A stretch of 64,000 bases of DNA, taken from assembly GCA_964016885.1 (NCBI GenBank), contig OZ024742.1, forward strand, positions 334,862,001 to 334,926,000. Direction: 5' to 3'. A program made the translations under genes and the position numbers. Origin of the DNA: Eledone cirrhosa. Lineage: Eukaryota. Under the pieces are notes generated by a model, which was not told the origin of the DNA, did no database searches, and saw nothing but the letters and a program-made list of their open reading frames with translations. Positions 23,522 to 61,867 of this stretch are shown in pieces; positions within the stretch are counted from its first letter, which is position 1; each line of letters begins with the position of its first letter.

Positions 23522-23972
23522 GGGATAACAAGTTATCGTTATAGGTAATCCAGTTAGAGGTTGTGAATACTCCGTATTGTGGATAGTTTTAGCGTACGGC
23601 GTTGTTTGACTCAACAAGAGTTTTTTTAGGTAGCGAGTATATGAGTTCTCGGGAGTTCCTATATAAGTTAATCTTGGAGTAATAATAGTGAAAGAGTGAA
23701 GAATAACATGGTCAACAGTACAAAAAGGGTTTTATTTACAGTATTAACAATTGTTTAATTGGTTAAGTTGTCTTAAAATTGCTAATCACTTGAAGTTGTG
23801 TCACTCAATTTTAAATACGATGTATGCTTAACCAAAACATCAGAAAAATTTTAAAAATTATACACAGCGTTTACAAATTCAAATTACATTATTAATAAAG
23901 AAGGAAAAAGAATCACTACTTTTATTTTTTCTCCCTATTTTTCTTTTCTTTATCTTTTTCTTTATTCTTTTT

Positions 23973-24032
<60 letters not shown>

Positions 24033-24323
24033 TCATTCTTTCTTTCTTTCTTTCTCTTTTTTTCTCTCTATTATTTTCTTTTTTCTTCTTTTTCTTTTTC
24101 CTTTATTAATGATGTCGTAATTTGAATTTGTAAACGTTGTGTATAATTTTATTTTTTCAGTTTTTCTGATGATTTGGTTAAGCATACATTGTATTTAAAA
24201 TTGAGTGACACAACTTCAAGTGATTAGCAATTTTAAGACAACTTAACCAATGAAACAATTGTTAATACTGTAAATAAAACCCTTTTTGTACTGTTGACCA
24301 TGTTATTCTCCACTCTTTCACTA
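23522..24323 (-). mobile_element. Hammerhead-bearing element with inverted arm (23686-23905 vs 24100-24323)
   Basis: Inverted repeat of about 220 bp around a (CTTT)n spacer; diverged homolog at 47724-48020. Confidence 0.75.
24158..24270 (+). ncRNA. Type I hammerhead ribozyme motif
   Basis: CTGATGA-t-ttggttaag...cttaaccaa-t-GAAAC-aatt-GTT; 9-bp stem II, palindromic stem III ACAATTGT, weak stem I. Confidence 0.65.
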
Positions 24324-24331
24324 TATATATA

Positions 24332-25475
<1,144 letters not shown>

Positions 25476-25489
25476 ATATATATATATAT

Positions 25490-26482
25490 ATAAACAAGGT
25501 TTAGTAAATAATGAAAAAGTTTCAAAATAAATTTTAAAAAATTGACTTTACCTACTATAGTTACCTTTACCGATCGGTTTCGAATCCCAAAAATAAAACG
25601 TAGGCCATACGGCCTTCGTTGCAAAGAGAGATTCTCGTCAGAAGGTTCTTTTCATTCAAAGAATATAAAATTCCTGAATTTAAATCACAAACTAGCGCTA
25701 TCAAAGACTGTTCCTGGGATGAGAGTGGATGATGTAGAACAGGTTTATCAAGGGCCGTAGTAAAGATAGAGGCAAAAGGAGGTAGGTCGAACTAGCCACC
25801 GCGATTCGAAACCGATCGGTAAAGGTAACTATAGTAGGTAAAGTCAATTTTTTAAAATTTATTTTGAAACTTTTTCATTATTTACTAAACCTTGTTTATA
25901 TTTGTTCTGGCTCGTTAATTTATTAACCCGCCATTGAACCACACTGGCACTTGGTTGGACAATACATGCGTACCTTGGCGCCTTGTGCGTGAAAGGACGT
26001 ATTTCATATTACTACTACCTCCACATACGTTGAGAACAAACCGGGTCATTCCGACTGCTGCTGATAACAGCGGTGGCTAGTTCGACCTACCTCCTTTTGC
26101 CTCTATCTTTACTACGGCCCTTGATAAACCTGTTCTACATCATCCACTCTCATCCCAGGAACAGTCTTTGATAGCGCTAGTTTGTGATTTAAATTCAGGA
26201 ATTTTATATTCTTTGAATGAAAAGAACCTTCTGACGAGAATCTCTCTTTGCAACGAAGGCCGTATGGCCTACGTTTTATTTTTGGGATTCGAAACCGATC
26301 GGTAAAGGTAACTATAGTAGGTAAAGTCAATTTTTTAAAATTTATTTTGAAACTTTTTCATTATTTACTAAACCTTGTTTATATTTGTTCTGGCTCGTTA
26401 ATTTATTAACCCGCCATTGAACCACACTGGCACTTGGTTGGACAATACATGCGTACCTTGGCGCCTTGTGCGTGAAAGGACG

Positions 26483-26490
<8 letters not shown>
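25490..26490 (+). mobile_element. Retrozyme-like element: 1.4 tandem copies of a 483-bp unit (25803-26490) preceded by an inverted segment (25490-25802)
   Basis: gattcgaaaccgatcggt at 25803 and 26286; identical 72-aa ORFs on opposite strands; (TA)n on both sides. Confidence 0.88.
26226..26309 (+). ncRNA. Type I hammerhead ribozyme, canonical core (mirror copy on minus strand at 25563-25646)
   Basis: acctt-CTGACGA-gaatc...gattc-GAAAC-cgatcg-GTA-aaggt; all three stems pair. Confidence 0.92.
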
Positions 26491-26554
<64 letters not shown>

Positions 26555-26559
<5 letters not shown>

Positions 26560-26609
26560 AGTATGTATGTATACGTACATACATATATGTATACAGACGT
26601 ACAGTAGCA

Positions 26610-26645
<36 letters not shown>

Positions 26646-27130
26646 CAGGTACACATACATATATGTACGTATCAGTTTAGCGGACGCTTATTATAGCGCC
26701 CGCTTTGTTCGTTTGTAAACAAACTGAACAGCCTGAATTTATGCCGTACGGTGTTAAGGCAACCACGTCACCTTTTTGTTCAACACTGACACAGGAACGA
26801 TGTACTAGTTTCAAACTTGTTAGCTATCATCAGCACCGTATACCCTTCTGCCAGATGGTTGAACGTTCGAAAGTATATACTTTCCTTATGAAAATTAACG
26901 GCTGAGCAGCCTAATTTGCATATCGAGTGAGTTCGGCCAGGCGTACCGAGAACGACAAGTTGTAATAAAATGAAAACGAAATTTCATTTCTCACTCTTAG
27001 TACGGCACTTACTTAAATGTAAGTATGTATGTATACGTACATACATATATGTAAGTGCCGTACATACATATAAGTAAGTGCCGTACTAAGAGTGAGAAAT
27101 GAAATTTCGTTTTCATTTTATTACAACTTA
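26555..27130 (-). mobile_element. Retrozyme-like element: about 462-bp unit with terminal redundancy and inverted end (26958-27015 vs 27071-27129)
   Basis: atgtaagtatgtatgtatacgtacatacatatatgta at 26555 and 27017; inverted arm visible. Confidence 0.7.
26797..26839 (-). ncRNA. Compact type I hammerhead ribozyme
   Basis: Minus strand acggtg-CTGATGA-tagct(aaca)agttt-GAAAC-ta-GTA-catcgt; 6-bp stem I, palindromic ACTAGT stem III, weak stem II. Confidence 0.8.
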
Positions 27131-27141
27131 TATATATATAT

Positions 27142-28551
27142 TTGAATCATAGACAACCTATGTATTTCTGGGGGTACCTAGTATCCCTGGACATATTAAC
27201 TTCAATCTCTTTCTCCGTCCGTTGAGAACAATTCTGTTGCTCTATTTAGCTGCTATTTTTTTAGTAGTAATTGTAGACAGCAAGTCTTTGATTTTCCCGC
27301 TTTTACTTCGGTCCAGTTTACATACGGGTCACTTTTACGACCTTTCAGACCTTTATTTGCTGGCAGGAGGTTATATATTTTGTCGTTCCTGGGACGTTTA
27401 GCCCTAGGAAGAGAAAATGCTTCCTGATGAGCTTTGGTTTTCCATCATAAATCCATCGGATTTATGAGGTTTTACAAAGCGAAACTGATCAGTAAGGGCC
27501 ACTAGGAGAGGTAAATATTTATATTATATTTTTTAATGTATTTTTAGAAAATTGATTGAATTTTACTTGTTCTGCTTATCTTAATATTAAAGTTCTGGTG
27601 TATCAAATTAATACCATTGAACAACCTTGAATCATAGACAACCTATGTATTTCTGGGGGTACCTAGTATCCCTGGACATATTAACTTCAATCTCTTTCTC
27701 CGTCCGTTGAGAACAATTCTGTTGCTCTATTTAGCTGCTATTTTTTTAGTAGTAATTGTAGACAGCAAGTCTTTGATTTTCCCGCTTTTACTTCGGTCCA
27801 GTTTACATACGGGTCACTTTTACGACCTTTCAGACCTTTATTTGCTGGCAGGAGGTTATATATTTTGTCGTTCCTGGGACGTTTAGCCCTAGGAAGAGAA
27901 AATGCTTCCTGATGAGCTTTGGTTTTCCATCATAAATCCATCGGATTTATGAGGTTTTACAAAGCGAAACTGATCAGTAAGGGCCACTAGGAGAGGTAAA
28001 TATTTATATTATATTTTTTAATGTATTTTTAGAAAATTGATTGAATTTTACTTGTTCTGCTTATCTTAATATTAAAGTTCTGGTGTATCAAATTAATACC
28101 ATTGAACAACCTTGAATCATAGACAACCTATGTATTTCTGGGGGTACCTAGTATCCCTGGACATATTAACTTCAATCTCTTTCTCCGTCCGTTGAGAACA
28201 ATTCTGTTGCTCTATTTAGCTGCTATTTTTTTAGTAGTAATTGTAGACAGCAAGTCTTTGATTTTCCCGCTTTTACTTCGGTCCAGTTTACATACGGGTC
28301 ACTTTTACGACCTTTCAGACCTTTATTTGCTGGCAGGAGGTTATATATTTTGTCGTTCCTGGGACGTTTAGCCCTAGGAAGAGAAAATGCTTCTCTGATG
28401 AGCTTTGGTTTTCCATCATAAATCCATCGGATTTATGAGGTTTTACAAAGCGAAACTGATCAGTAAGGGCCACTAGGAGAGGTAAATATTTATATTATAT
28501 TTTTTAATGTATTTTTAGAAAATTGATTGAATTTTACTTGTTCTGCTTATC

Positions 28552-28558
<7 letters not shown>
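27142..28558 (+). mobile_element. Retrozyme-like tandem array: about 2.9 near-identical copies of a 485-bp unit
   Basis: ttgaatcatagacaacc at 27142, 27627 and 28112; TA tracts at both ends. Confidence 0.92.
27419..27499 (+). ncRNA. Type I hammerhead ribozyme (repeated at 27904-27984 and 28389-28470)
   Basis: CTGATGA-gctttg...caaagc-GAAAC-tgatca-GTA-agggc; internal 10-bp hairpin tcataaatcc/ggatttatga in loop II. Confidence 0.88.
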
Positions 28559-28599
<41 letters not shown>

Positions 28600-28604
<5 letters not shown>

Positions 28605-28815
28605 TATGGTGTGATAAAACCCAGCTAGACCATAACCCACCAGAGTCCTCGATTATTGGGGTAGTAGGGTCAGTAATATGAAAAAATTCAGCACCCCGAC
28701 GGCTGAGCCCCAGCCGTTTCGAAAGCTAGATCCGAACTCATTTACATGCTCACCAGTTCGGATCTAGCTGTCGAAACGGCTGGGGCTCACCCGTCATAGT
28801 CCTGGATCTTTTCAT
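28600..28815. mobile_element. GAAAC-hairpin-GTC family repeat with fold-back end
   Basis: gacggctgagccccagccgtttcgaaagctagatccgaact ... agttcggatctagctgtcgaaacggctggggctcacccgtc. Confidence 0.75.
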
Positions 28816-29332
28816 AAATATATATATTTGATTTCGATCCACTGAATAGGGTGACGTCACAAAACCCTGCAACTCAATGGCAGCCATTGATGTTGACCTG
28901 TCCTTCTTTTTGCATATGTGTTGCTCTTGTTCAGAAAGTTTCCAGTGCAAGGTCTTTTACGCATAAAAGCGTTATATGCACTGGCGTCATATGATTTAAA
29001 CATGTTTTACGTGTGTTGCTGAAATGGATGGTCGTATCCGAAAAAAGTTTTTTCTTTCGATGCTAAAAAATCGCGTTCGTACCACTATGTGTGAGAAAAG
29101 ACTTGAAAACCGAGTAAAATACATATATTTGTTATATTTACATGGCTATATATTTAAAAACTCTAAATGTATATACATTTATAGACACATGTATGCAGCC
29201 ATAGCTATTTCTTTTTCTTTACTGTATATACGGATTTAACTTTGCCAAATAATATATATATATATATATGCCTACATACTTACATACATACACACACACA
29301 CACAAACACACAAACAGACACACACACACACC

Positions 29333-30487: not shown

Positions 30488-33400
30488 CTACAGGCTTATA
30501 AACAGAGAAGGCCCAATCACTCGGGCCATTTTCGCTTCATTCACCCACCTTTCAGTAAATTTACTGGGGTGCAGTGCCTCTCTCTCCACCCTGATTCTCC
30601 TTCTAAAGTGATACTTAAAGAAGGGAATCAATTGTTGTCCGGAGAGAAAGGCATCTGTCCTCAGTCCTCTCAACCTCGTCCACCATATAACTTCTTTCAC
30701 CATAGCCACCGTACAGAGGAAAACCGCCTCTCTTTCGTTTTTGAAAGAGTCTGGCGGTTTGATCCTTACTATGAACTCGGCAGTCAACTGTATTTGTCCC
30801 ATACGCGACAGCAGTTGTTCTGCATAGTTCCACAGGTCGCTTACGCCCGGGCAGTGTACAATTGCGTGCAGAACTGTTTTAATGTCCTGCGCACATCTTG
30901 GACACGTCCTCTTGGAAGGATCCCTGCCAGGGCGTCCGTGCCTGTAGATCTTGTCACGAACCGGTAGAGCTCCTCAGTAGCACTGCCAGGCAAGGGACCT
31001 CTGGAAGTTGTCCATAGGTCCCGGGCGGAAAGTCCTACCAAACATACTGGTGAGCTCATCGTCTTCGACGCCCAGAGTCTCTCCGAGCACGTCGTCGCCC
31101 TTGTAACGTACAATCCCTCTATAGAATGTCGAAGTGGAGTCTCCACTGATTGCTGCGCCCGCTTGCCAGAGGACTGTGAGCGCCTGAGCGCATTCAATGT
31201 GCCAGGCGCCCATCGTTTTCGGTCTTTTCTTCACCCAGGACTGCAGCTCCGTTAGCGAGACGAGCTGTGGGAAAGCCTGTCTCACAAACGGTGCACACAC
31301 CGGTTGGGGGTCGGTGACGAATACCTGGAGATGCCGCAGCCTCAGCGCATGTTTGCGCATCATCAGCCACGGCATTCCCAGCCCTCCGTTGGAAGGGTGC
31401 TGACAGCAGACGGATCTCCTCACCAGCGGAGCCTGCTTCTTCCACAGAAACTGGAAGAGCATGCGTTCCATCTTGGCGAGGTGTTCACGGGGACAAGGCA
31501 CGACAGTCAAGCGGTAGTAGATGACGGACGCTATGAAAGTGTTCGCCACCTCCGCTCGACCTTTCAAGGACAGTTTGCACTCTGCCCATTTCTGAGTGAG
31601 TGCAAACACCTTGGCCGTGACCTCGTTCCAGTTTTTCTCCACCTGGAGGTCTGGACCGAACCAGACCCCGAGCAATTTCACCGGTCCGGCCGTCCAGCGT
31701 CCAACGACGCTGTCGGATGTCATCGGTTTGCCTCTCCACGTACCGAGTTGCAAACCGACAGACTTGTCTGGGTTTAGTTTTGCTCCCGTCAGCGTTTCGT
31801 ATTCTTTCAGTATGTTGCCGATCACCCCGATTTCCGAGGTGCTCGACACCATTACTGTCACGTCGTCGGCATAAGCCGACGCCGCTTTGCGCAGTCCCGG
31901 TTCTAGGGGGATGCCCTTCAACAGCTCCAATTTCCGCAGTAGTGGCTCTAGAGTCAATACATACAGAATGGAGGAGAGAGGGCATCTCTGTCGAATGGAA
32001 CGCGTGATTGCGAACGGCTCCGATAGGTAGCCGTTCACCTTGACCCTCGAGCAGATGCTGGTGTGCATCGCCTCGATCCATCCTCTGAACACGGGACCGA
32101 AACCGGCCGCCTTGAGAACCGCTTCCAAGTATCGATGGTCGACCCTATCGAATGCCTTAGACTGATCCAAGTTGATCAGAGCCCCACCGAAGCCGGGTTT
32201 ACTACCCACCCTCTCTATGATGTATCGCATGAGGTAGAGGTTGTCGTGTATGGACCGGGTCGGGATTGCACACGTTTGCGCTTTCCCTACCAGGTTCTCG
32301 ACGACAAGCGCCAACCTCGTCGCTAGCACCTTGGCCAAAATCTTTAACTCTGTGTTGAGCAGAGTTATGGGCCTGAAGTTGTTAATTTCGTCCCCCTTGT
32401 TCTCGTCTTTCCTGATCAGCGTTACTACGCCCTTGCCTGCAGAACTGGGAATTCTCCCGTTCTGCTGCCAATTGCAGTAGACGGCTTCGAGGACGCCAGA
32501 GAACAAGTCCGGCATGCCTATGTAAAATTCGTAGGGTAGACCATCTAGACCGGGTGACTTGCGTTTCCCGCAGCGGCCCAGAGCGTCCCGTATCTCAGTG
32601 TCCGTGATCGGTCTTTCGCAGAACTCGGCGTCCGTGTTCGAGAGACGCGGCAGGCCGTCGAGGTATGAACTAAAGTCCATTGCCCCGTTCGGCTCACCGT
32701 CGTTCTGCTCAAACAGTCGCGCAAAGTGCCGCTGAAAGGCCGCGCACATTTGCTTGGGGTCAAGTAGCACGCGTCCGTTTTGGTCTTTCAAAGACCGAAT
32801 CGTGGACTTGTTGCCACTTTTTGCCTCCGCCACTCGGGCCCAGCTGACAGCTTTCGCTCCTTCGTTTCCTAGAGCACGTGTTTTGCTTCTGACCACGCAG
32901 CCTTCGTGTTTCGCATCGAAGAACTGGTCCAGTGCCGTTCTCGACGCTAACACTCTAGCCGCGTTGCCACTTCTAAGTGCCTCCTCTACCTTGGCTACTA
33001 GTTCTCTTTCTATTCTGTTTTTCTCTAAGGCTAACTCTCTGCTATACCCTATCGATTCTATTCTAATTGCTTTCTTGAGAGAGTACCACCATCTATTGTT
33101 GACGATGGCTTCCGTTAACTGTTGCTTGACTAGTTTACTTATCCGTTCACTGTAAGCTTTACGTGCCGGCAACGACACGTTCAGCTTCCAGTATCCGGGA
33201 CCCTGTCTATGTATTCTATCACGGTTGACTAAGCAGACGACTAACTTGTGATCTGAATAGGCAACCATGTGCATTCGTGGACAGCTTAACATATCCTTGT
33301 CCCTTTCTCTAATGAAGAACCTATCTAAATACGATCTAGATGTCCCACTGCGGTTTACCCACGTCCACTGTGGTGCAGTCGGGAAATCCAGTCGATACCT

Positions 33401-33934
33401 ATCGGCCAGTTGGAATTGGCCGATTAAAGTTTTGAGGCTGTTGCACCCCGCTCTACTGGGACATGCTCCCACATAGTCCCATCGTGCATCTAGGATACCA
33501 TTCCAGTCCCCCACTAAAAGTAAGGAGCGAGACGTTCCCAGAAAAGACTCTAGATGCTTAAAGAAGTCTGGCCGTGATTGCGATTGCCCGGTCGGGGCAT
33601 AAACGGCCACCAGTCTGAAGGCTCCACCTCCGATACTGTTCACGTCTAGGACTACCAGTCTACCCTCCGGGTCCAAGTGTACTTGCTGTACTCCGACGTC
33701 CAGGTTCTTCCGAAACATAACAGCCACTCCACCTCCACCTCCTGGCTGACAGAGAGATGCGTAGATCTCAAAGTCGTCGAAGATGGGGGTTAGTTGCTGC
33801 CTGTTGTGGATTCTGGACTCGGTGATGGCTATCACATCCATACTGTGTGACCTAAGGTCGTTTAAAAGTTGGCCCTGTTTCCAGGGCATCCCTAGGCCAC
33901 GCACATTCACGGTTCCAACTCGTAAACCAGCCAT
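30488..33934 (-). pseudogene. Tx1 ORF2 (AP endonuclease, reverse transcriptase, C-terminal zinc finger); open for 986 aa (33934-30974), then a nonsense codon and frameshift
   Basis: NVRGL, GDWN, YLDRF, SDHK, GYWKLN, KSPGLDGLP, FRPITLLN, DQSKAFDRV, RQRCPLS, YADD; TGA where copy 2 has an Arg codon. Confidence 0.93.
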
Positions 33935-33975
33935 GTTGGTGAAGAAAAGTTGGAGAAAAAGGACGAAAGGTGCAC

Positions 33976-35851
33976 TTACCTTTTCGTTTGCTGGAGATCG
34001 GGTTGTTCAATCTCCATTTGGGTGCTGGATGGGGTGTTGGGTGGGGCGGGGAAACCTTTCAACAGGACGCGGTTGATGGGTTTGTGGCAGGGGTTGCCCA
34101 CGTCCTGTGAAAATTTAATTTTCAGGTCTTTATAGGTTTCCATAGAAACCCTTATAAGTTTAAGGTGTGGAGACGATTCTGCCTTGACGAAAGTTTTGCC
34201 CTCCGTCTCCACCTTGGGGTTTGGGGAGATGACCTCCATCAAACTCTTGTTGTTTGTGTTGATGTATGCGTATTGTTGTTTGTGTTTTTGTTGTATTGTT
34301 TTAGTTTGTTGTTCATCCGGGAGTTTTCTTTTTATGGTGGGTGCTTGTGTTTGGGGTGGTGTTGGTGCTGGTTTTGCTGATAGGGGATGTTTGACTGTGG
34401 TGTTGTTTGTGTTGTTGTTTGTGTGTGTGGTTGTGTGTTGGTGTTGGTGATTGGAGTTTTGGGGGTTTTGTGGTGTCTCTTTTTTTGTTTTTTGGATTTC
34501 CGCGGTTCTCCCTCTTCTTCACTTAAAGAAGGAGAAGCAGCTTCATCCGTCGATGAATAATCATCGTCAGGTGTGTGGGGTAAGGGTATGTTGTGTGGTG
34601 GTGGTGGTGTTTCGGTATGTGTGTTTGTGGTAGTGTTTGATGGAGTGGGATGGAGTGGGGATGCGTTCTTCAGGGGTGTTGTCTCTGTTTTTTCTGTTGT
34701 TGTTGGTTGAGTGTCTGTTTGTTTTGGTGTGGTTGCTCGTTTCGTCTGTCGTTGTACTTGTGGTGGTGGTGGTGGTTGTTTTGGTGTTGGTGTTGGTAAT
34801 AGCGTTTTTTTATGATGTTGCTGTTGTGTGTTTGTGGACAAGAGGCTTTTAGGTGAGATGTGCTACCACAGCGAAAGCAGTGAAATTTTCTTCCTTCTAC
34901 CGAAATGTTTATTTTGTTTTTATTATCAATAACGACTCTTTCGGGTATTTTGGAGATTCTCTCCGGTTTCATTTGCAACAGAATCTCCAAATCGGTGCCC
35001 GCCCACCTTTGTCGAATGGATTTTCGTATCGAAAGTATTATGTCTGTTTCTGGCTCTACGAAGCCAGCCAAGATCCACCAGATGTTAATGCTTGGAGGTA
35101 TGTTTTTTATTTTTATTTTTTGTGTCCTTTTCCCCATGTATGTAGGGAAAAAGGTGTATGCTTTTGACACTATTGGTGTCACAGAGTTTTTTTGGGCCAG
35201 TGCCTCGCTTTTAAACAGTACGGAAACACTTCTGTACTGTTTTCCTCGCTGGAGAAAATCGACATTTCCTAGAATCTCCTTGAAAGAATCTTCTATATCT
35301 GACTGATTAACAAATGTCGGTTTTCTTGACGAATTTGACACAGTCCTAAAAGTGACTGATCGGCGGTTTGTGTCTTCCTTTATTTCAAGGGGTGAGTTAA
35401 TTCTAAACCCACCTCTTTCTTCGAAAGTTACAAATTTTCTCCCTTGCTGGAGCATATCTCTTGCGTTGGAGATATCAAGATTTATAAAATCTTGTTTCTT
35501 GTTGACTGTGTCAGCGAAAGACATTTTCTTTTTTTGTGTGATGTTGTTGTTAATAATGATGTTATCGTTGTTGGAAATTTTATGTGTAGATGTATCTGTA
35601 GAGTTGTTGATGTCTTTTTCATGTGTATGTATATCAATGGGTTTTTTTGCCGTGTTTTCCCGTGTGTTATTGTCATTTTTCTCCGCTTCGGCGGTAGAAA
35701 TTGTAACATTTTCAAATGTTGATATATTTTTTTCTTTTGTGACAGTATCTATGGCAACGTCCATAGCAGCAGAAGCAGATATAACGTTAATATCTGCCTC
35801 TTTCTCTCTCTTTTCTCTATTAACGTTCTCCAGCGTTCTAGTGTTGCTCAA
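33976..35851 (-). pseudogene. Tx1 ORF1 (nucleic-acid-binding protein with CCHC knuckle), frameshifted
   Basis: CFRCGSTSHLKASC in ORF 35851-34670; continues in 34841-34332 and 34242-33976, the latter homologous to copy 2 ORF 40044-39499. Confidence 0.85.
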
Positions 35852-36067
35852 GTTTTTTTACTTTGTAAAATTTGATATTTTAAAACAAACTTTTAAATAA
35901 AATTTTCGCCCCTACAGGGGCGAAAAATGGGATTACCACCCAGCTGACAATTCAGCTTGGGGGTTAATCTACAAAGTGTTGTATTTTTTTCAAACAATTA
36001 GATCGGTTTTTTGCATAGAAATTAACAAAAAACTTACCGGCGATATTCCACACGTTAGACAGAAAGA

Positions 36068-36068
36068 G

Positions 36069-36152
<84 letters not shown>
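36068..36152. repeat. (GATA)n tract between Tx1 copies (also 30213-30253, 40397-40466, 40910-40975, 57393-57416)
   Basis: Direct observation. Confidence 0.95.
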
Positions 36153-36153
<1 letters not shown>

Positions 36154-36155
36154 TG

Positions 36156-39100
36156 TTTCTTTATTAGCCACAGGGGCACAAAAGAAGGGGACAAATACAA
36201 AAGGGGAAGTTTACATACAATAAAAACGTGTAAAATATTATCACAAATACAATTTAAAAATTAGTCGATTTTCCCCAATAAGGGGAGACATTACATATGG
36301 GTAACACATACCCCCGAAAAAAATGTGCAACCCTCATCTCCAGGAGTACAAAGAGTTTGTACTCCTTTCCTCTCCTCCTCTTTTTCCTCAACCTACAGGC
36401 TGATATAGAGAAAAGGCCCATTCACTCGGGCCATTCTCGCCACTTTCACCCACCTTTCATAAAACTTGATGGGGTACAGCACCTCTCTCTCCATCCTGAT
36501 TCTTCTTCCAATGTGGTATTTGAAAAAAAGAATCAGTTGTTGGCCGGAGAGAAAGGTGTCTGATCTCAGCCCTTTCAACCTTGTCCACCATACAACCTCT
36601 TTCGCCATAACTATTACACAAAGGAAAACCGCCTCTCCTTCGTTTTTGAAGAAGGGTGGCGGTTTGATCATGACAATGGACTCGGTGGTCAACCGGATTG
36701 GTCCAACCCGCGACAATAGTCGTTCTACATAGCCCCACAGGTCGGCGACGCCCGGGCAGTGTATGAATGCGTGCGCGACGGTTTCTTCGTCTTGCATACA
36801 CCTCGGACAGATCTTTTTTGCAGGGTCCCTGCCCGGGCGCCCATGTCTGTAGAGCTTGTCTCGAACTGGTGGACCTCCTCGGTGGCACTGCCAGGCCAGA
36901 GACTTTTGGAAGTTGTCCACCGGTCCCGGGCGGAAGGTCCTACCGAACAGACTGGCCAGTTCGCCTTCCTCTACGCCTAGAGTTTCACCGAGCGTGTCGT
37001 TGCACTTGCTGCGGACCAACCCTCTATAGAATGTCGAAGTGGAGTCTCCACTGATCGCCGGTCCGTTTGCCAGAGGACTGTGATCGCCTGAGCACATTCA
37101 ATGTGCCAGTCACCCATTTTCCTCGGTCTTTGCTTGACCCAGGACTGCAGCTCGGTCAGTGACACGAGTCGTGGGAAGGTTCGCCTCACGAACGGGGCCC
37201 ACACCGGTTGTCCGGTGAGGAATACGTAGAGATGCCGCAGCCTGAGCGCGTGTTTGCGCATCGTCAGCCACGGCAACCCCAGCCCTCCGTTGGAAGGGTG
37301 TTGGCAGCAGATGGATCTTCTCACCAAAGGAGCCCGCCTCTTCCAAAGGAATTGGAAGAGCACGCGCCCCATTTTGCCGAGCGTTTTGGCTGGACAAGGC
37401 ACTACGGTCAAACGGTAGTAGATGGCGGACGCTATAAAAGTGTTCTCCACATCCGCTCGACCTTTCAAGGATAGTTTGCACTCGGCCCACTTCTGGGTGA
37501 GTGCAAACACCTTGGCCGACACCTCGTTCCAGTTTTTCTCCACCTGGAGGTCCGGACTAAACCAGACCCCAAGTAGCTTTACCGGTCCTTTCGTCCAGCG
37601 TCCGACGACGCCATCGAAAGGCATCGGTCTGCCTCTCCACGATTGCAAACTGATGGACTTGTCCCGGTTCAGCTTCGGCCCTGTGAACCTTTCGTATTCC
37701 TTCAGTAAGGTGCTGACTTACGCGATTTGCGAGGCGCTCGACACCATTACTGTCACGTCGTCGGCGTAGGCCAACGCCGCTTTCCGCAATGCCGGTTCCA
37801 GAGGGATGCCCTGCAATAGCTCCAACTTCCGCAGTAGTGGCTCGAGAGTCAGTACGTACAGAAGGGAGGAGAGAGGGCATCCCTGTGGATCGCGTGATAT
37901 GGAACGGCTCCGCGAGGTTGCCGTTCACCTTGACCCTTGAGCAGATGTTGCTGTTGTGCATGCAGCAATCCAGCCCCTGAACACGGGTCCGAAGCCTGCC
38001 GCCTCGAGCACCGCATCCAGGTAACGATGGTCAACCCTAGCGAAAGCCTTAGACTGATCCAAGTTGATCAGTGCCCCACCGAAGCCGGATTTACACCCTA
38101 TCCTCTCTATGATGATATCACATGAGGCGGAGGTTGTCGTGTATGGACCTGGTCGGGATTGCGCATGTCTGCGCTTCTCCCACCAGGTTCTCGACGACAA
38201 GCGCCAGCCTCTTTGCCAACACCTTGGCCAAAATCTGTAACTCTGTGTTTAGCAGAGTTATGGGCCGGAAGTTTCCTATGTCATCGCCCTTGATCTCGTC
38301 CTTCCTGATTACGCCCTTGGTCACAGAACTGGGAATTCTTCCATTCTGCTCTCAGTTGCAGTAGACCGCCTCCAGGAGACCGGAGAATAAGTCCGGCATT
38401 GCTACGTAAAATTCGTAGGGTAGACCGTCGAGACCTGGAGATTTGCGTTTGCCGCATTGGCCCAACGCGTCCCCTATCTCAGCGGCTGTGATCGGCGTTT
38501 CACAGAACTTTGCCTCGCCGTCCGAGAGTCGCGGTAGGCCGTCGAGGTATGAACCGAAATCCATAGCCCCTCCCGGCGCGCCGCCCTGCGCGAACAGTTG
38601 AGCAATGTGCCGCTGAAAGGCCGCACACATCTGCTTCGGCTCACGTATCACGCGTCCGTTTTGATCCATCAAAGACCGAATCGTGGACTTGTTGCCACTT
38701 CTTGCCTCCATCACTCGGGCCCAGCAAACAGCTTTGGTTCCCTCGTTTCCCAGAGCCCGTATTTTGCTTCTGACAACGCAACCTTCATGCTTTGCGTCGA
38801 AGAACTGGTCCAAGGCCGTTCTCGTTGCTAGCACGCTGGCTACGTTGCCACTTCTAATTGCATCTTCTACTTTATCTACCAGTTCCTTCTCGGTTCTATT
38901 TCTATCTAATGCTAATTCTTTACTAAAAACTAACGAGTCTAATCTAACTGCCCTCTTGAGAGAGTACCACCATCTGTCATTGACAATGGCCCCTGTGAAG
39001 TACCGTTTAACTAAAGTGCTAATCCGTCTACTGTAGGCTTTGCATGTCGGTAACGACAAATTCAGCTTCCTGTAGCCGTGTCCTTCTCTATGGGTTCTAT

Positions 39101-40243
39101 CCAGGTTGACCATGCAGGTCACTAGTTTGTGATCTGAATAGGCAACCATGAACATTTGTGGACAGCTTAACATGTCCCTATCCTTATTTCTAACTAGAAC
39201 CCTATCAGCAAAACGGCAACCTCGCCCCCACCCCCCGGCCGACAGAGAGATGCGTAGATCTCAAAGTCATCAAAGATGGGGGCAGCTGTCGCTCGCTGTC
39301 GATCCTGGACTCGCAAATGGCTACTACATCCATACTGTGCAACCTGAGGTCGTTTAAGAGTTTGCCCTGTTTCCAGGGCATCCCCAGGCCGCGAACATTC
39401 ACACATCCAACTCTTATATTTGCCACGTTGGTTCTGAAAAGTTAAAAGAGAAGAAAACACTCACCTCTTCGTCTCCCGGGGATCAGGCCGCGCGGTTTTC
39501 AAGGGGGTGTTAGAGGGGCTGTCTGGGTGGGAGGTGGTTTCCGGCGAGGTCGGAACGGAGATGTTTGGTGGGGTGGGGGTGTCTGGGGTGGGGGTGTCTG
39601 GGGTGAGGGTGGAGAAACATTTAAAAGGGCGCGGTTAATGGGTTTAACACAATGATTACCCACGTCCTTAGGAAAGTTTTCCTTTAAAGACTTATAGGTG
39701 TCCGTAGGGACCCTAATCATCTTTAAATTAGGTTTGTCTACACAGTTCGAAAAGGTTTTCCCTTCGGTTTTCACCGAAGGGTCGTTGGAGATGACCTCCA
39801 TTAAAGTTTTGTTTTTACTGTTTATGTATGTGTAATGTTCTTGTGTTGCGGTGGTTTTTGTCTGTTCTTGTGGGAGCTTTCGTTTTGTTGTAGGTGTTTG
39901 TGTTTGGAGTGATGTCGTGGTTTTGTTTTCGGGACGGGGGGTTTTTGTTTGTAATGTTTGTGTTGTTTGTGTTGGTGGTTGTATGTTTGTAGTGATGTTT
40001 GTTGTTTTTTTGTTCTTGTAGTGTCTTTTCTTCTTTCTTTTCAAACGGAGAGGCTCTCCCTCATCGTCACTTGGTGATGATGTGGGGGCCTCGTCCGTTG
40101 TGGCGTCTGTGTTATTTGGAAGGGGTATGTTTTGGGGAGCTGTTGTGTTTGTGGGTGTTTTTGCAGTGGTTTTAGGTGGAGTGGGACTGGGTGGGACTGT
40201 GCTTGCAGGTTGGTTTGTTGTTCTTATTTTGGTTGTGTTTGCG

Positions 40244-40291
<48 letters not shown>

Positions 40292-40390
40292 GGTGGTGGT
40301 GGTGGTGGTGGTGGTGGTGGTGGTGGTGGTGTTGGTTGTGTTGTTGTTTTGGGTGTTGGCAGTAGTGCCTCTTTTTTTTTTTAATACGTG
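36156..40390 (-). mobile_element. Tx1-type retrotransposon copy 2, different subfamily, 5'-truncated in ORF1, degenerate ORF2
   Basis: ORF2 fragments 39426-36393 homologous to copy 1, deletion in the APE domain, several frameshifts, intact CPRC...H...C zinc finger. Confidence 0.93.
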
Positions 40391-61181: not shown

Positions 61182-61867
61182 TTAGTGTATCTACCAACAT
61201 ATATATATACAGATGTATACCCATGCAAGCAAATATATAGGTTTTGTCTTAGTAACTGTGTGGTTCAATGCAAGGGGATGCAGAACAATTATATGAAAAA
61301 CGTCAAATAAGAAAATTATTGTAATTAGCTTACTTACTTAAATTTCACTCCAACTAATTAGTTTCTGAAAGGCAATATACATGGAGAGCATGGAGAAAAC
61401 TTTTCGTCATCAGGGAGTCATTCTTAGCTAAGATACCTGGCAATGCGTGGACACAGGGAACTTAAAATAAAAAATATTCAGTGGATGGAAAAAAAGCAAG
61501 CGGGGACTAAATTCCAGGACACTGAAAAATTCACTGCCTTCTTGTTCGGTGGCAAATTCAAAAGAATCAATCACGTGACATCGAGGTTAATCAGTGAGGA
61601 GTGGGGTGTTAAAAAGACCGTAGCCAAGCTGTTACTATGAACTATAGTAGTAATTTTGGCAAATTTTTGCTCAACAAAATAATTTGGAGATAATTATAAA
61701 GAATTAGTATATCTACCAACATATATATACAGATGTATACCTATGCAAGCAAATATAGAGGTTTTGTCTTAGTAACTCTGTGGTTCAATGCAAGGGGATG
61801 CAGAACAATTATATGAAAAACGTAAAATAAAAGTAAGCTAATTACTATAATTTTCTTATTTTACGTT

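What the first reader, a model, noticed from the sequence alone, without database searches (positions are those of the whole stretch)
25490..26490. 483-bp element with a fully canonical hammerhead and an inversion junction inside the ribozyme
Seen: perfect stems I (acctt/aaggt), II (gaatc/gattc) and III (ACCGATCGGT). The tandem part begins at 25803, only 19 nt upstream of the predicted GUA cleavage site. This is the best candidate for an active ribozyme in the window.
Basis: partly seen in the sequence, partly recalled or inferred. Interest (0 to 1): 0.7.

Follow-up and report, generated by a model that had tools for sequence, protein, structure and literature searches.

The report
Young hammerhead retrozyme, two-armed Penelope-type insertion
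This is one copy of a young 483-base non-coding repeat that carries a predicted self-cutting RNA motif and sits in TA microsatellites as two back-to-back arms, a known kind of animal element likely pasted in by a Penelope-type retrotransposon enzyme; the join inside the ribozyme is likely just where copying stopped.

Summary
A 315-bp inverted arm (25488-25802) abuts a 690-bp sense arm (25803-26492, 1.43 units of 483 bp) inside (TA)n. A type I hammerhead is intact at 26226-26309 (cut predicted after 26304) and again on the minus strand; the copy at 25803 is 5'-truncated. Stems covary across 16 related motifs. The genome holds 1,196 exact copies of the 27-nt core. In 60 of 62 two-armed insertions, one arm ends at site A (unit ~80) and the other at site B (~188-193). 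An intact Hydra-clade Penelope-like element in this genome follows the same rule (10 of 10). This is a non-LTR retrozyme, likely mobilised by such an element; no direct partner was found. The junction is the 5' end of an arm that ran through the cut site, so cleavage did not make it, and its position is no hotspot. Family-wide, 5' ends do pile up from the cut to 7 nt upstream (30 vs 5). The ribozyme is predicted to work as a dimer and to be trapped by the inverted arm in read-through RNA. The scan has found this architecture before, here and in other genomes. Known kind; modest interest.

The parts
25488..26492 (.). Whole insertion: two arms joined 5' to 5' (head-to-head) inside a (TA)n tract
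25488..25802 (-). Inverted arm, 315 nt, unit positions 249 to 80 across the cut site; 3' end at site A (unit 80) with ATAT overlap into the TA tract
25803..26492 (+). Sense arm, 690 nt = 1.43 units, unit positions 465 to 188; 3' end at site B (unit 188) with ATAT overlap into the TA tract
25802..25803 (.). Inversion junction: blunt join of two 5'-truncated ends (unit 249 and unit 465)
25822..26304 (+). One 483-nt unit, cut site to cut site; 39.5% GC; no open frame spans it
26226..26309 (+). Complete type I hammerhead: stem I 26226-30/26305-09, CUGACGA 26231-37, stem II 26238-44/26284-90, GAAA 26291-94, palindromic stem III 26294-26303, predicted cut after 26304
25563..25646 (-). Second complete hammerhead, identical, in the inverted arm; predicted cut between 25568 and 25567
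25803..25826 (+). 5'-truncated hammerhead (3' strand of stem II, GAAA, stem III, GUA, 3' strand of stem I); predicted to pair with stem III of the downstream copy, so it could be cut after 25821 by that copy's core
   Evidence: fold of 25803-26492 pairs 25811-25820 with 26294-26303; cleavage inferred
25897..25901 (+). Site A inside the sense arm (also at 26380-26384): fixed 3' end of one arm in most insertions
26005..26014 (+). Site B inside the sense arm (unit 188-193): fixed 3' end of the other arm
25472..25487 (.). Left (TA)n target flank
26493..26557 (.). Right (TA)n target flank

Best explanation
This is one insertion of a young, non-coding, hammerhead-bearing tandem repeat (a non-LTR retrozyme), likely pasted into (TA)n by the reverse transcriptase-endonuclease of a Hydra-type Penelope-like element, with each cut DNA strand likely primed at a different fixed site of the RNA. 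Shown: the motif and its covariation, the copy number, the TA flanks, the two fixed 3' ends with one per arm, scattered 5' ends, one haplotype across all units and both arms of an insertion, and the same end rule in an autonomous Hydra element here. Inferred: the protein cuts both strands of a TA tract; one end primes at site A and the other at site B on short ATAT matches; each reverse transcription runs 3' to 5' through 0.1 to 10 units of a circular or multimeric RNA; the two cDNA ends are then joined, often on 1-5 nt of microhomology. The junction at 25803 is where the site-B arm stopped. The ribozyme would cut multimeric transcripts into 483-nt units, mainly as a double hammerhead through the palindromic stem III (untested).
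For: 1,196 exact matches of the 27-nt core, 0 for the reversed control; 215 matches in the 40 scored of 1,629 candidates, those listed mostly 99-100% identical. End rule: 28 of 28 twins among 40 insertions; 13 of 15 twins among the first 40 of 44 loci listed on C1; 19 of 19 twins among 35 further loci; 60 of 62 in all, p=4e-16 against a free 50:50 choice. Autonomous element: 785-aa frame with RWK, DKT, YRDD, CxCx5C, CxxC and CxH, the Hydra marks in Craig 2021 (PMC8557442 section 11). It has 146 scored matches at 97-100% identity, flanks in (TA)n, and two fixed ends 114-118 nt apart, one per arm in 10 of 10 twins with both ends in view among 20 loci; the unit's sites are 108-113 nt apart. Haplotypes: 0.16% within an arm, 0.18% between arms of one insertion, 0.66% between insertions (set 1); 0.53%, 0.91% and 5.9% (set 2); rare variants are shared by all 7 units (L061) or both arms (L067, L069). 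Microhomology at 16 of 28 junctions (about 45% expected by chance, so only slightly raised). Double hammerhead -65.2 kcal/mol against -54.6 for two monomers. Frangieh 2024 (PMC11167929, parts 1-2 read): a Penelope-like protein cuts and extends both strands of AT-rich DNA, starts at two adjacent internal RNA sites and is predicted to be a dimer.
Against: No autonomous element sharing sequence with this unit was found: blastn against 30 Hydra loci hit only a neighbouring copy of the unit, a local alignment scored 33 against shuffles of 25.7 +/- 4.0, and a profile search of the fetched loci found only sister non-coding families. Two older twins break the end rule (L076 A+A, L095 A+41); later deletion into the TA tract is my untested explanation. 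12 of 40 insertions in set 1 are single-armed. Most 5' ends are not at the cut: 0 of 68 within 2 nt. Shared haplotypes also fit a uniform linear multimer or later homogenisation. In Li 2026 (bioRxiv 10.64898/2026.07.22.740005, parts 1-3 read) 8 of 9 predicted retrozyme dimers did not cut in vitro, and Frangieh 2024 found a Penelope hammerhead that cut only with protein.
Confidence: 0.85

Rival explanations
1. Same element and enzyme, but the template is a linear multimeric transcript (or linear monomers joined by template jumps), not a circle.
For: Four insertions start exactly at the first base after the cut (L110, L114, L115, L116), as a cut linear RNA would give. Source arrays of 9-10 units exist. 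Frangieh 2024 found uncut RNA to be the main substrate in vitro.
Against: Arms cross up to 10 cut sites with no scar, and rare variants recur in every unit and in both arms. Linear copying with 5' truncation should shrink arrays over generations (inference). Circles are shown for coral, mussel and axolotl retrozymes (PMC7229834, passages).
Confidence: 0.4
2. The junction is caused by the ribozyme: cleavage, re-ligation or the folded hammerhead stops reverse transcription and so places the inversion there.
For: Family-wide, 5' ends are denser from the cut to 7 nt upstream than just beyond: 30 ends in 8 positions (477-483, 1) against 5 in 9 positions (468-476), p=2e-6 (55 non-minisatellite rows on C1-C4; 30 read by script, 25 by eye; test). 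17 of 68 ends lie within 30 nt of the cut, 8.4 expected (window chosen after seeing the data). The junction opens exactly at the GATTC strand of stem II.
Against: Position 465 lies outside the dense zone, with 1 other true end. The arm retains 19 nt upstream of the cut, so that RNA was not cut there. The partner end is at unit 249, far from the ribozyme. A 40-nt scan over all 68 ends gives p=0.07.
Confidence: 0.2
3. The unit is only the terminal repeat (pLTR) of an autonomous Penelope-like element not yet found, so these are truncated copies of it.
For: Penelope-like insertions show the same tandem, inverted and tail structure (PMC8557442). Li 2026 derives retrozymes from pLTRs. Many Hydra families exist here (42,280 first-look candidates, 146 scored).
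Against: The unit follows itself head-to-tail up to 10 times. In none of the 79 fetched loci did I see it run into an RT frame in the same sense. No open frame spans the unit.
Confidence: 0.07
4. The inversion is an assembly artefact or a DNA-level fold-back of a tandem repeat.
For: The arms are 100% complementary.
Against: 62 twin loci have different junctions but the same two outer ends, on many contigs, including copies 10-15% diverged. The two arms are not mirror images: they start at unit 249 and 465.
Confidence: 0.02

Closest known systems
Metazoan non-LTR retrozymes (Cervera and de la Pena 2020, PMC7229834, passages seen; Li, Clavereau and Pollet 2026, bioRxiv 10.64898/2026.07.22.740005, parts 1-3 of 5 read)
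   Same: Non-coding tandem units each with a type I hammerhead, low GC (39.5%), dispersed in many copies, co-occurring with Penelope-like elements; palindromic stem III that favours dimers, as in amphibian retrozymes.
   Different: 483 nt is above the 170-400 nt of the 2020 paper (inside the 51-972 nt of Li 2026). Long structured loop II. Head-to-head arms with two fixed ends were not in the text I saw ('inverted' occurs 0 times in PMC7229834). Expression and circles are not shown here. This locus has only one complete hammerhead per strand, so it fails Li's 'active' criterion.
Hydra-clade Penelope-like elements (Craig et al. 2021, PMC8557442; passages and section 11 read)
   Same: (TA)n targets, canonical hammerheads, partial tandems, an inverted 5'-truncated copy at the 5' side, and a tail at only one end; a Hydra family in this genome shows the same one-A-one-B ends.
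   Different: No reading frame. The 'tail' is about 110 nt, not 30-40. No detectable sequence link to the one Hydra family I examined.
Poseidon element PAc of Anolis (Frangieh et al. 2024, PMC11167929; parts 1-2 of 4 read)
   Same: Two internal start sites for reverse transcription downstream of the hammerhead; both DNA strands cut and extended; AT-rich target.
   Different: In PAc the start site is not homologous to the target and the paper saw no difference in start site between strands; here both sites carry ATAT matches to the target and the two arms almost always use different sites.
L1 twin priming (recalled; no call)
   Same: Two primers from one target cut give a 5' inversion joined on microhomology.
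   Different: In L1 the second primer site is variable and the first cDNA stops near it; here both sites are fixed and arms run past the other site for several units.

Membership tests
Type I hammerhead ribozyme | Core CUGANGA, GAAA, A15.1-U16.1 and UH cut site | tested here: met
   0 hits in 60 shuffles
Type I hammerhead ribozyme | Three helices with open stem I, supported by covariation | tested here: met
   92.3% paired, 13 of 16 pairs change on both sides, slid controls 26-51%. The 16 motifs were picked by core pattern from loci where my scanner had found stems, so the test leans towards the structure.
Type I hammerhead ribozyme | Match to a curated Rfam hammerhead model | tested here: not met
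   no hit on this motif; the long loop II is the likely cause (inference)
Type I hammerhead ribozyme | Loop I-loop II tertiary contact | not tested
   loop II is 39 nt with an inner hairpin; contacts not modelled
Type I hammerhead ribozyme | Self-cleavage | not testable with these tools
   only indirect: 4 insertions begin exactly at the cut
Non-LTR retrozyme | Tandem non-coding units of a few hundred nt, each with a type I hammerhead | tested here: met
Non-LTR retrozyme | Dispersed, recently mobile, GC under 50%, no protein | tested here: met
Non-LTR retrozyme | At least two consecutive complete hammerheads (Li 2026 'active' copy) | tested here: inconclusive
   not met at this locus (one per strand); met in many other copies
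Non-LTR retrozyme | Expressed as linear and circular RNA | not testable with these tools
   needs RNA of this animal
Penelope-like insertion (works like) | Partial tandem plus inverted 5'-truncated copy, tail at one end only | tested here: met
Penelope-like insertion (works like) | (TA)n target as for Hydra and Naiad | tested here: met
Autonomous Penelope-like element (membership) | RT plus GIY-YIG-type endonuclease frame | tested here: not met
Non-autonomous derivative of a Hydra element | Sequence shared with the pLTR of an autonomous partner | tested here: inconclusive
   none with the one family examined; other Hydra families not examined

The most novel reading that the evidence does not exclude
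The genomic footprints record a Penelope mechanism I did not find in print: one protein dimer copies one hammerhead-made 483-nt RNA circle from both cut DNA strands at once, each subunit held to its own start site about 110 nt apart, and the ribozyme's cut or re-ligation point stalls the enzyme often enough to mark the genome (5' ends dense from the cut to the centre of stem III). That would be genomic evidence that a retrozyme hammerhead acts in the germ line and that Hydra proteins mobilise such circles in trans.
Probability: 0.35. Interest if true: 0.6.

Novelty: new member of a known kind. Interest (0 to 1): 0.3.

Why it matters
The element itself is ordinary for this genome and its kind is published. 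Its value is as a test system. How Penelope-like elements make inverted insertions and one-sided tails, and whether they move retrozyme circles, are stated open questions (Craig 2021; Cervera 2020; Li 2026). A young 483-nt template with two mapped start sites, beside intact 785-aa Hydra frames with the same end rule, makes these questions directly testable in vitro. The strict one-A-one-B rule and the pile-up of 5' ends at the ribozyme did not appear in three library searches or in the passages read, but earlier notes of this scan already report the end rule, and supplements of the four papers were not opened.

Tried and rejected
Rfam: no hammerhead hit on the motif; microRNA-hairpin hits are to palindromes and TA runs nearby. 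ARAGORN: no tRNA head in 24000-29000, so no sign of a tRNA-derived SINE. Pfam did not recognise 4 Penelope-like frames; clade assignment rests on motifs. Expression: no RNA holder listed; this says nothing on expression. Contigs of four public runs hold the family, but no listed piece bridged 25802/25803; a hole proves nothing, and the animal may differ. One contig in X1 showed another inversion joint at the cut site (25567 to 25829, depth 9.75), a single record, not counted. Search for the autonomous partner by blastn, profile and pairwise alignment failed. A sharp single-base hotspot of 5' ends at the cut was rejected: 4 true ends of 7 matches at position 1, and ends are spread over positions 1-15 with at most about 5 per position (48 rows, read by eye; detection differs between the patterns, so cannot be compared exactly). 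Rows left out of the 5'-end count: 9 internal variants, 11 rows at 466-467 (3 of 5 checked were true ends, 2 were variants), and the minisatellite rows; 355 of 455 matches were not listed. Left out of the end-rule count: L088 (end broken by another insert), L053 and L079 (stubs of about 10 nt). The circle folds only moderately better than shuffles (-112.7 vs -97.8 +/- 5.3), so it is not viroid-like rod RNA.

Full report
1. Observation. The window is microsatellite-rich animal DNA; its genome G000 has 3.0 Gb in 1,796 contigs. At the finding, 25488-25802 is the exact reverse complement of 26070-26384, and 25803-26009 repeats exactly at 26286-26492, an offset of 483. I number the unit from the first base after the predicted cut (unit 1 = 25822). 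The insertion is then an inverted arm from unit 249 to 80 and a sense arm from unit 465 to 188, joined bluntly at their 5' ends, with (TA)n on both sides. A scanner found 3 such motifs in the window and none in 60 shuffles.

2. Is the ribozyme real? Sixteen distinct motifs from this and sister families keep the core and change stems I and II in step: 92.3% of cells pair, 13 of 16 pairs change on both sides, 0/500 shuffles reach the covariation score, and slid controls fall to 26-51%. The motifs came from loci where my scanner had found stems, so this leans towards the structure. Rfam does not recognise the motif. Folding predicts stems I and II (most pairs above 0.9) but not stem III (0.03); the best fold pairs CUGA with the 3' strand of stem III and the active fold costs 2.1 kcal/mol more. 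Stem III is a palindrome. A double hammerhead of two copies scores -65.2 against -54.6 kcal/mol for two monomers; an inactive dimer scores about the same (-65.6). In the sense arm alone, the truncated copy's stem III pairs with that of the complete copy, so it could serve as substrate. In a read-through transcript the whole motif pairs with the inverted arm. All of this is prediction. Li 2026 saw no cutting in 8 of 9 predicted retrozyme dimers.

3. The family. The 27-nt core occurs 1,196 times exactly. I mapped three sets. Set 1: the window plus 39 loci from the 40 best-scored of 1,629 candidates, biased to long young copies. Of these 40, 28 are two-armed and all 28 have one 3' end at site A (unit 74-80) and one at site B (188-196); 12 are single-armed (9 A, 2 B, 1 other). 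Set 2: the first 40 of 44 loci listed on C1, 84-100% identical; 13 of 15 readable twins follow the rule, L076 (A+A) and L095 (A+41) do not, and L088 could not be read. Set 3: 35 loci picked by 5' truncation; 19 of 19 twins follow it. Total 60 of 62. Both sites carry a short ATAT or TA match to the target. Arms run from 31 nt to 10 units. All units and both arms of one insertion share a haplotype: 0.16% and 0.18% difference against 0.66% between insertions in set 1; 0.53%, 0.91% and 5.9% in set 2, where 3 of the 15 same-locus pairs are in fact separate insertions.

4. The junction. In set 1 the 68 5' ends are scattered over the unit; 17 fall inside the ribozyme against 11.8 expected (p=0.07) and none within 2 nt of the cut. 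The window's junction keeps 19 nt upstream of the cut, so it was copied from RNA that was uncut or re-joined there. One other true end at unit 465 was found. Targeted patterns do show a local excess: on C1-C4, 30 ends at unit 477-483 and 1 against 5 at 468-476 (p=2e-6; 25 of 55 rows read by eye). Ten of them need 5-7 templated bases upstream of the cut, which suggests stalling in stem III on intact RNA. Four insertions start exactly at unit 1, which suggests some cut templates. So the ribozyme likely shapes where arms end in the family, but this junction lies outside the dense zone.

5. The likely enzyme. Flanks of the fetched loci hold many Penelope-like frames. One family has an intact 785-aa frame with RWK, DKT, YRDD, CxCx5C, CxxC and CxH, the marks of the Hydra clade, which Craig 2021 describes as (TA)n-targeting and hammerhead-bearing. 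Its insertions have a unit of about 3.6 kb and the same geometry: two fixed 3' ends 114-118 nt apart, one per arm in 10 of 10 twins with both ends in view among 20 loci. It shares no detectable sequence with the 483-nt unit, so the actual partner is not identified; only 146 of 42,280 candidates were scored.

6. Mechanism. Shown: items 1, 3, the distributions in 4 and the parallel in 5. Inferred: a Hydra-type protein, probably a dimer as predicted for the Anolis element, cuts both strands of a TA tract, primes one at site A and one at site B, copies a circular or uniform multimeric RNA through several units, and the two cDNA ends are joined. I put the circle slightly ahead of a linear template, because arms cross many cut sites unscarred and share rare variants; four ends at the exact cut argue that linear cut RNA is used at times.

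7. Comparison and verdict. The element fits the published non-LTR retrozymes (PMC7229834, passages; Li 2026, parts 1-3), and its layout fits published Penelope-like insertions (PMC8557442, passages and section 11; PMC11167929, parts 1-2). It is not an autonomous element. The strict end rule and the 5'-end excess at the ribozyme were not found in searches; supplements were not opened and may bear on this. Earlier notes of this scan describe the same architecture and end rule for other families in this and other genomes; I had the rule before reading them. Verdict: a real, new member of a known kind; interest 0.3.

Noticed in passing
window 27142-28558: Sister retrozyme, 485-nt unit, 2.9 copies, single arm ending in TA; remotely homologous to the 483-nt unit over about 230 nt (nhmmer E=2e-4). 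Stem III ACTGATCAGT keeps the palindrome by a double change. Two of its three motifs have a mismatch next to the core.
   Followed up: partly
window 24432-24857: Near-perfect 213-nt palindrome with a short type I hammerhead (stem III ATATATAT) on both strands; relatives in 2 of 79 fetched loci.
   Followed up: partly
window 25040-25475 and 26660-27129: Two more repeat families with inverted arms in the same TA cluster, each with relatives in 15-16 of 79 fetched loci; no type I hammerhead by my scanner. Earlier notes of the scan report rearranged hammerheads in abundant repeats of this genome; not tested on these.
   Followed up: no
window 61343-61422 (minus strand): Another type I hammerhead of a further family (stem III palindrome ACTAATTAGT, cut after GUU), related to tandem copies in L062.
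   Followed up: partly
G000:C4:374307021-374313554 (L112, L113): A 19-nt minisatellite of many copies made from the bases right at the ribozyme cut site of this family.
   Followed up: no
L121, L127, L150-L169: Very young Hydra-clade Penelope-like family with many intact 785-aa frames, a unit of about 3.6 kb with microsatellites inside the untranslated part, and two hammerhead-like cores; twin insertions follow the A/B rule.
   Followed up: partly
window 30488-40380: Several non-LTR retrotransposon copies on the minus strand: a 1,010-aa endonuclease-RT frame at 30974-34006 with a zinc-knuckle ORF1-like frame at 34670-35857, and broken copies at 36393-39260.
   Followed up: no
window 23685-24324: 174-nt inverted repeat around a (TTTC)n tract; relatives in 2 of 79 loci.
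   Followed up: no
single-armed copies in sets 1 and 2: Single-armed insertions end mostly at site A (9 A and 2 B of 12 in set 1; a similar lean in set 2 by eye), and some carry a stub of about 10 nt of the opposite arm (L053, L079); site A priming may come first.
   Followed up: partly
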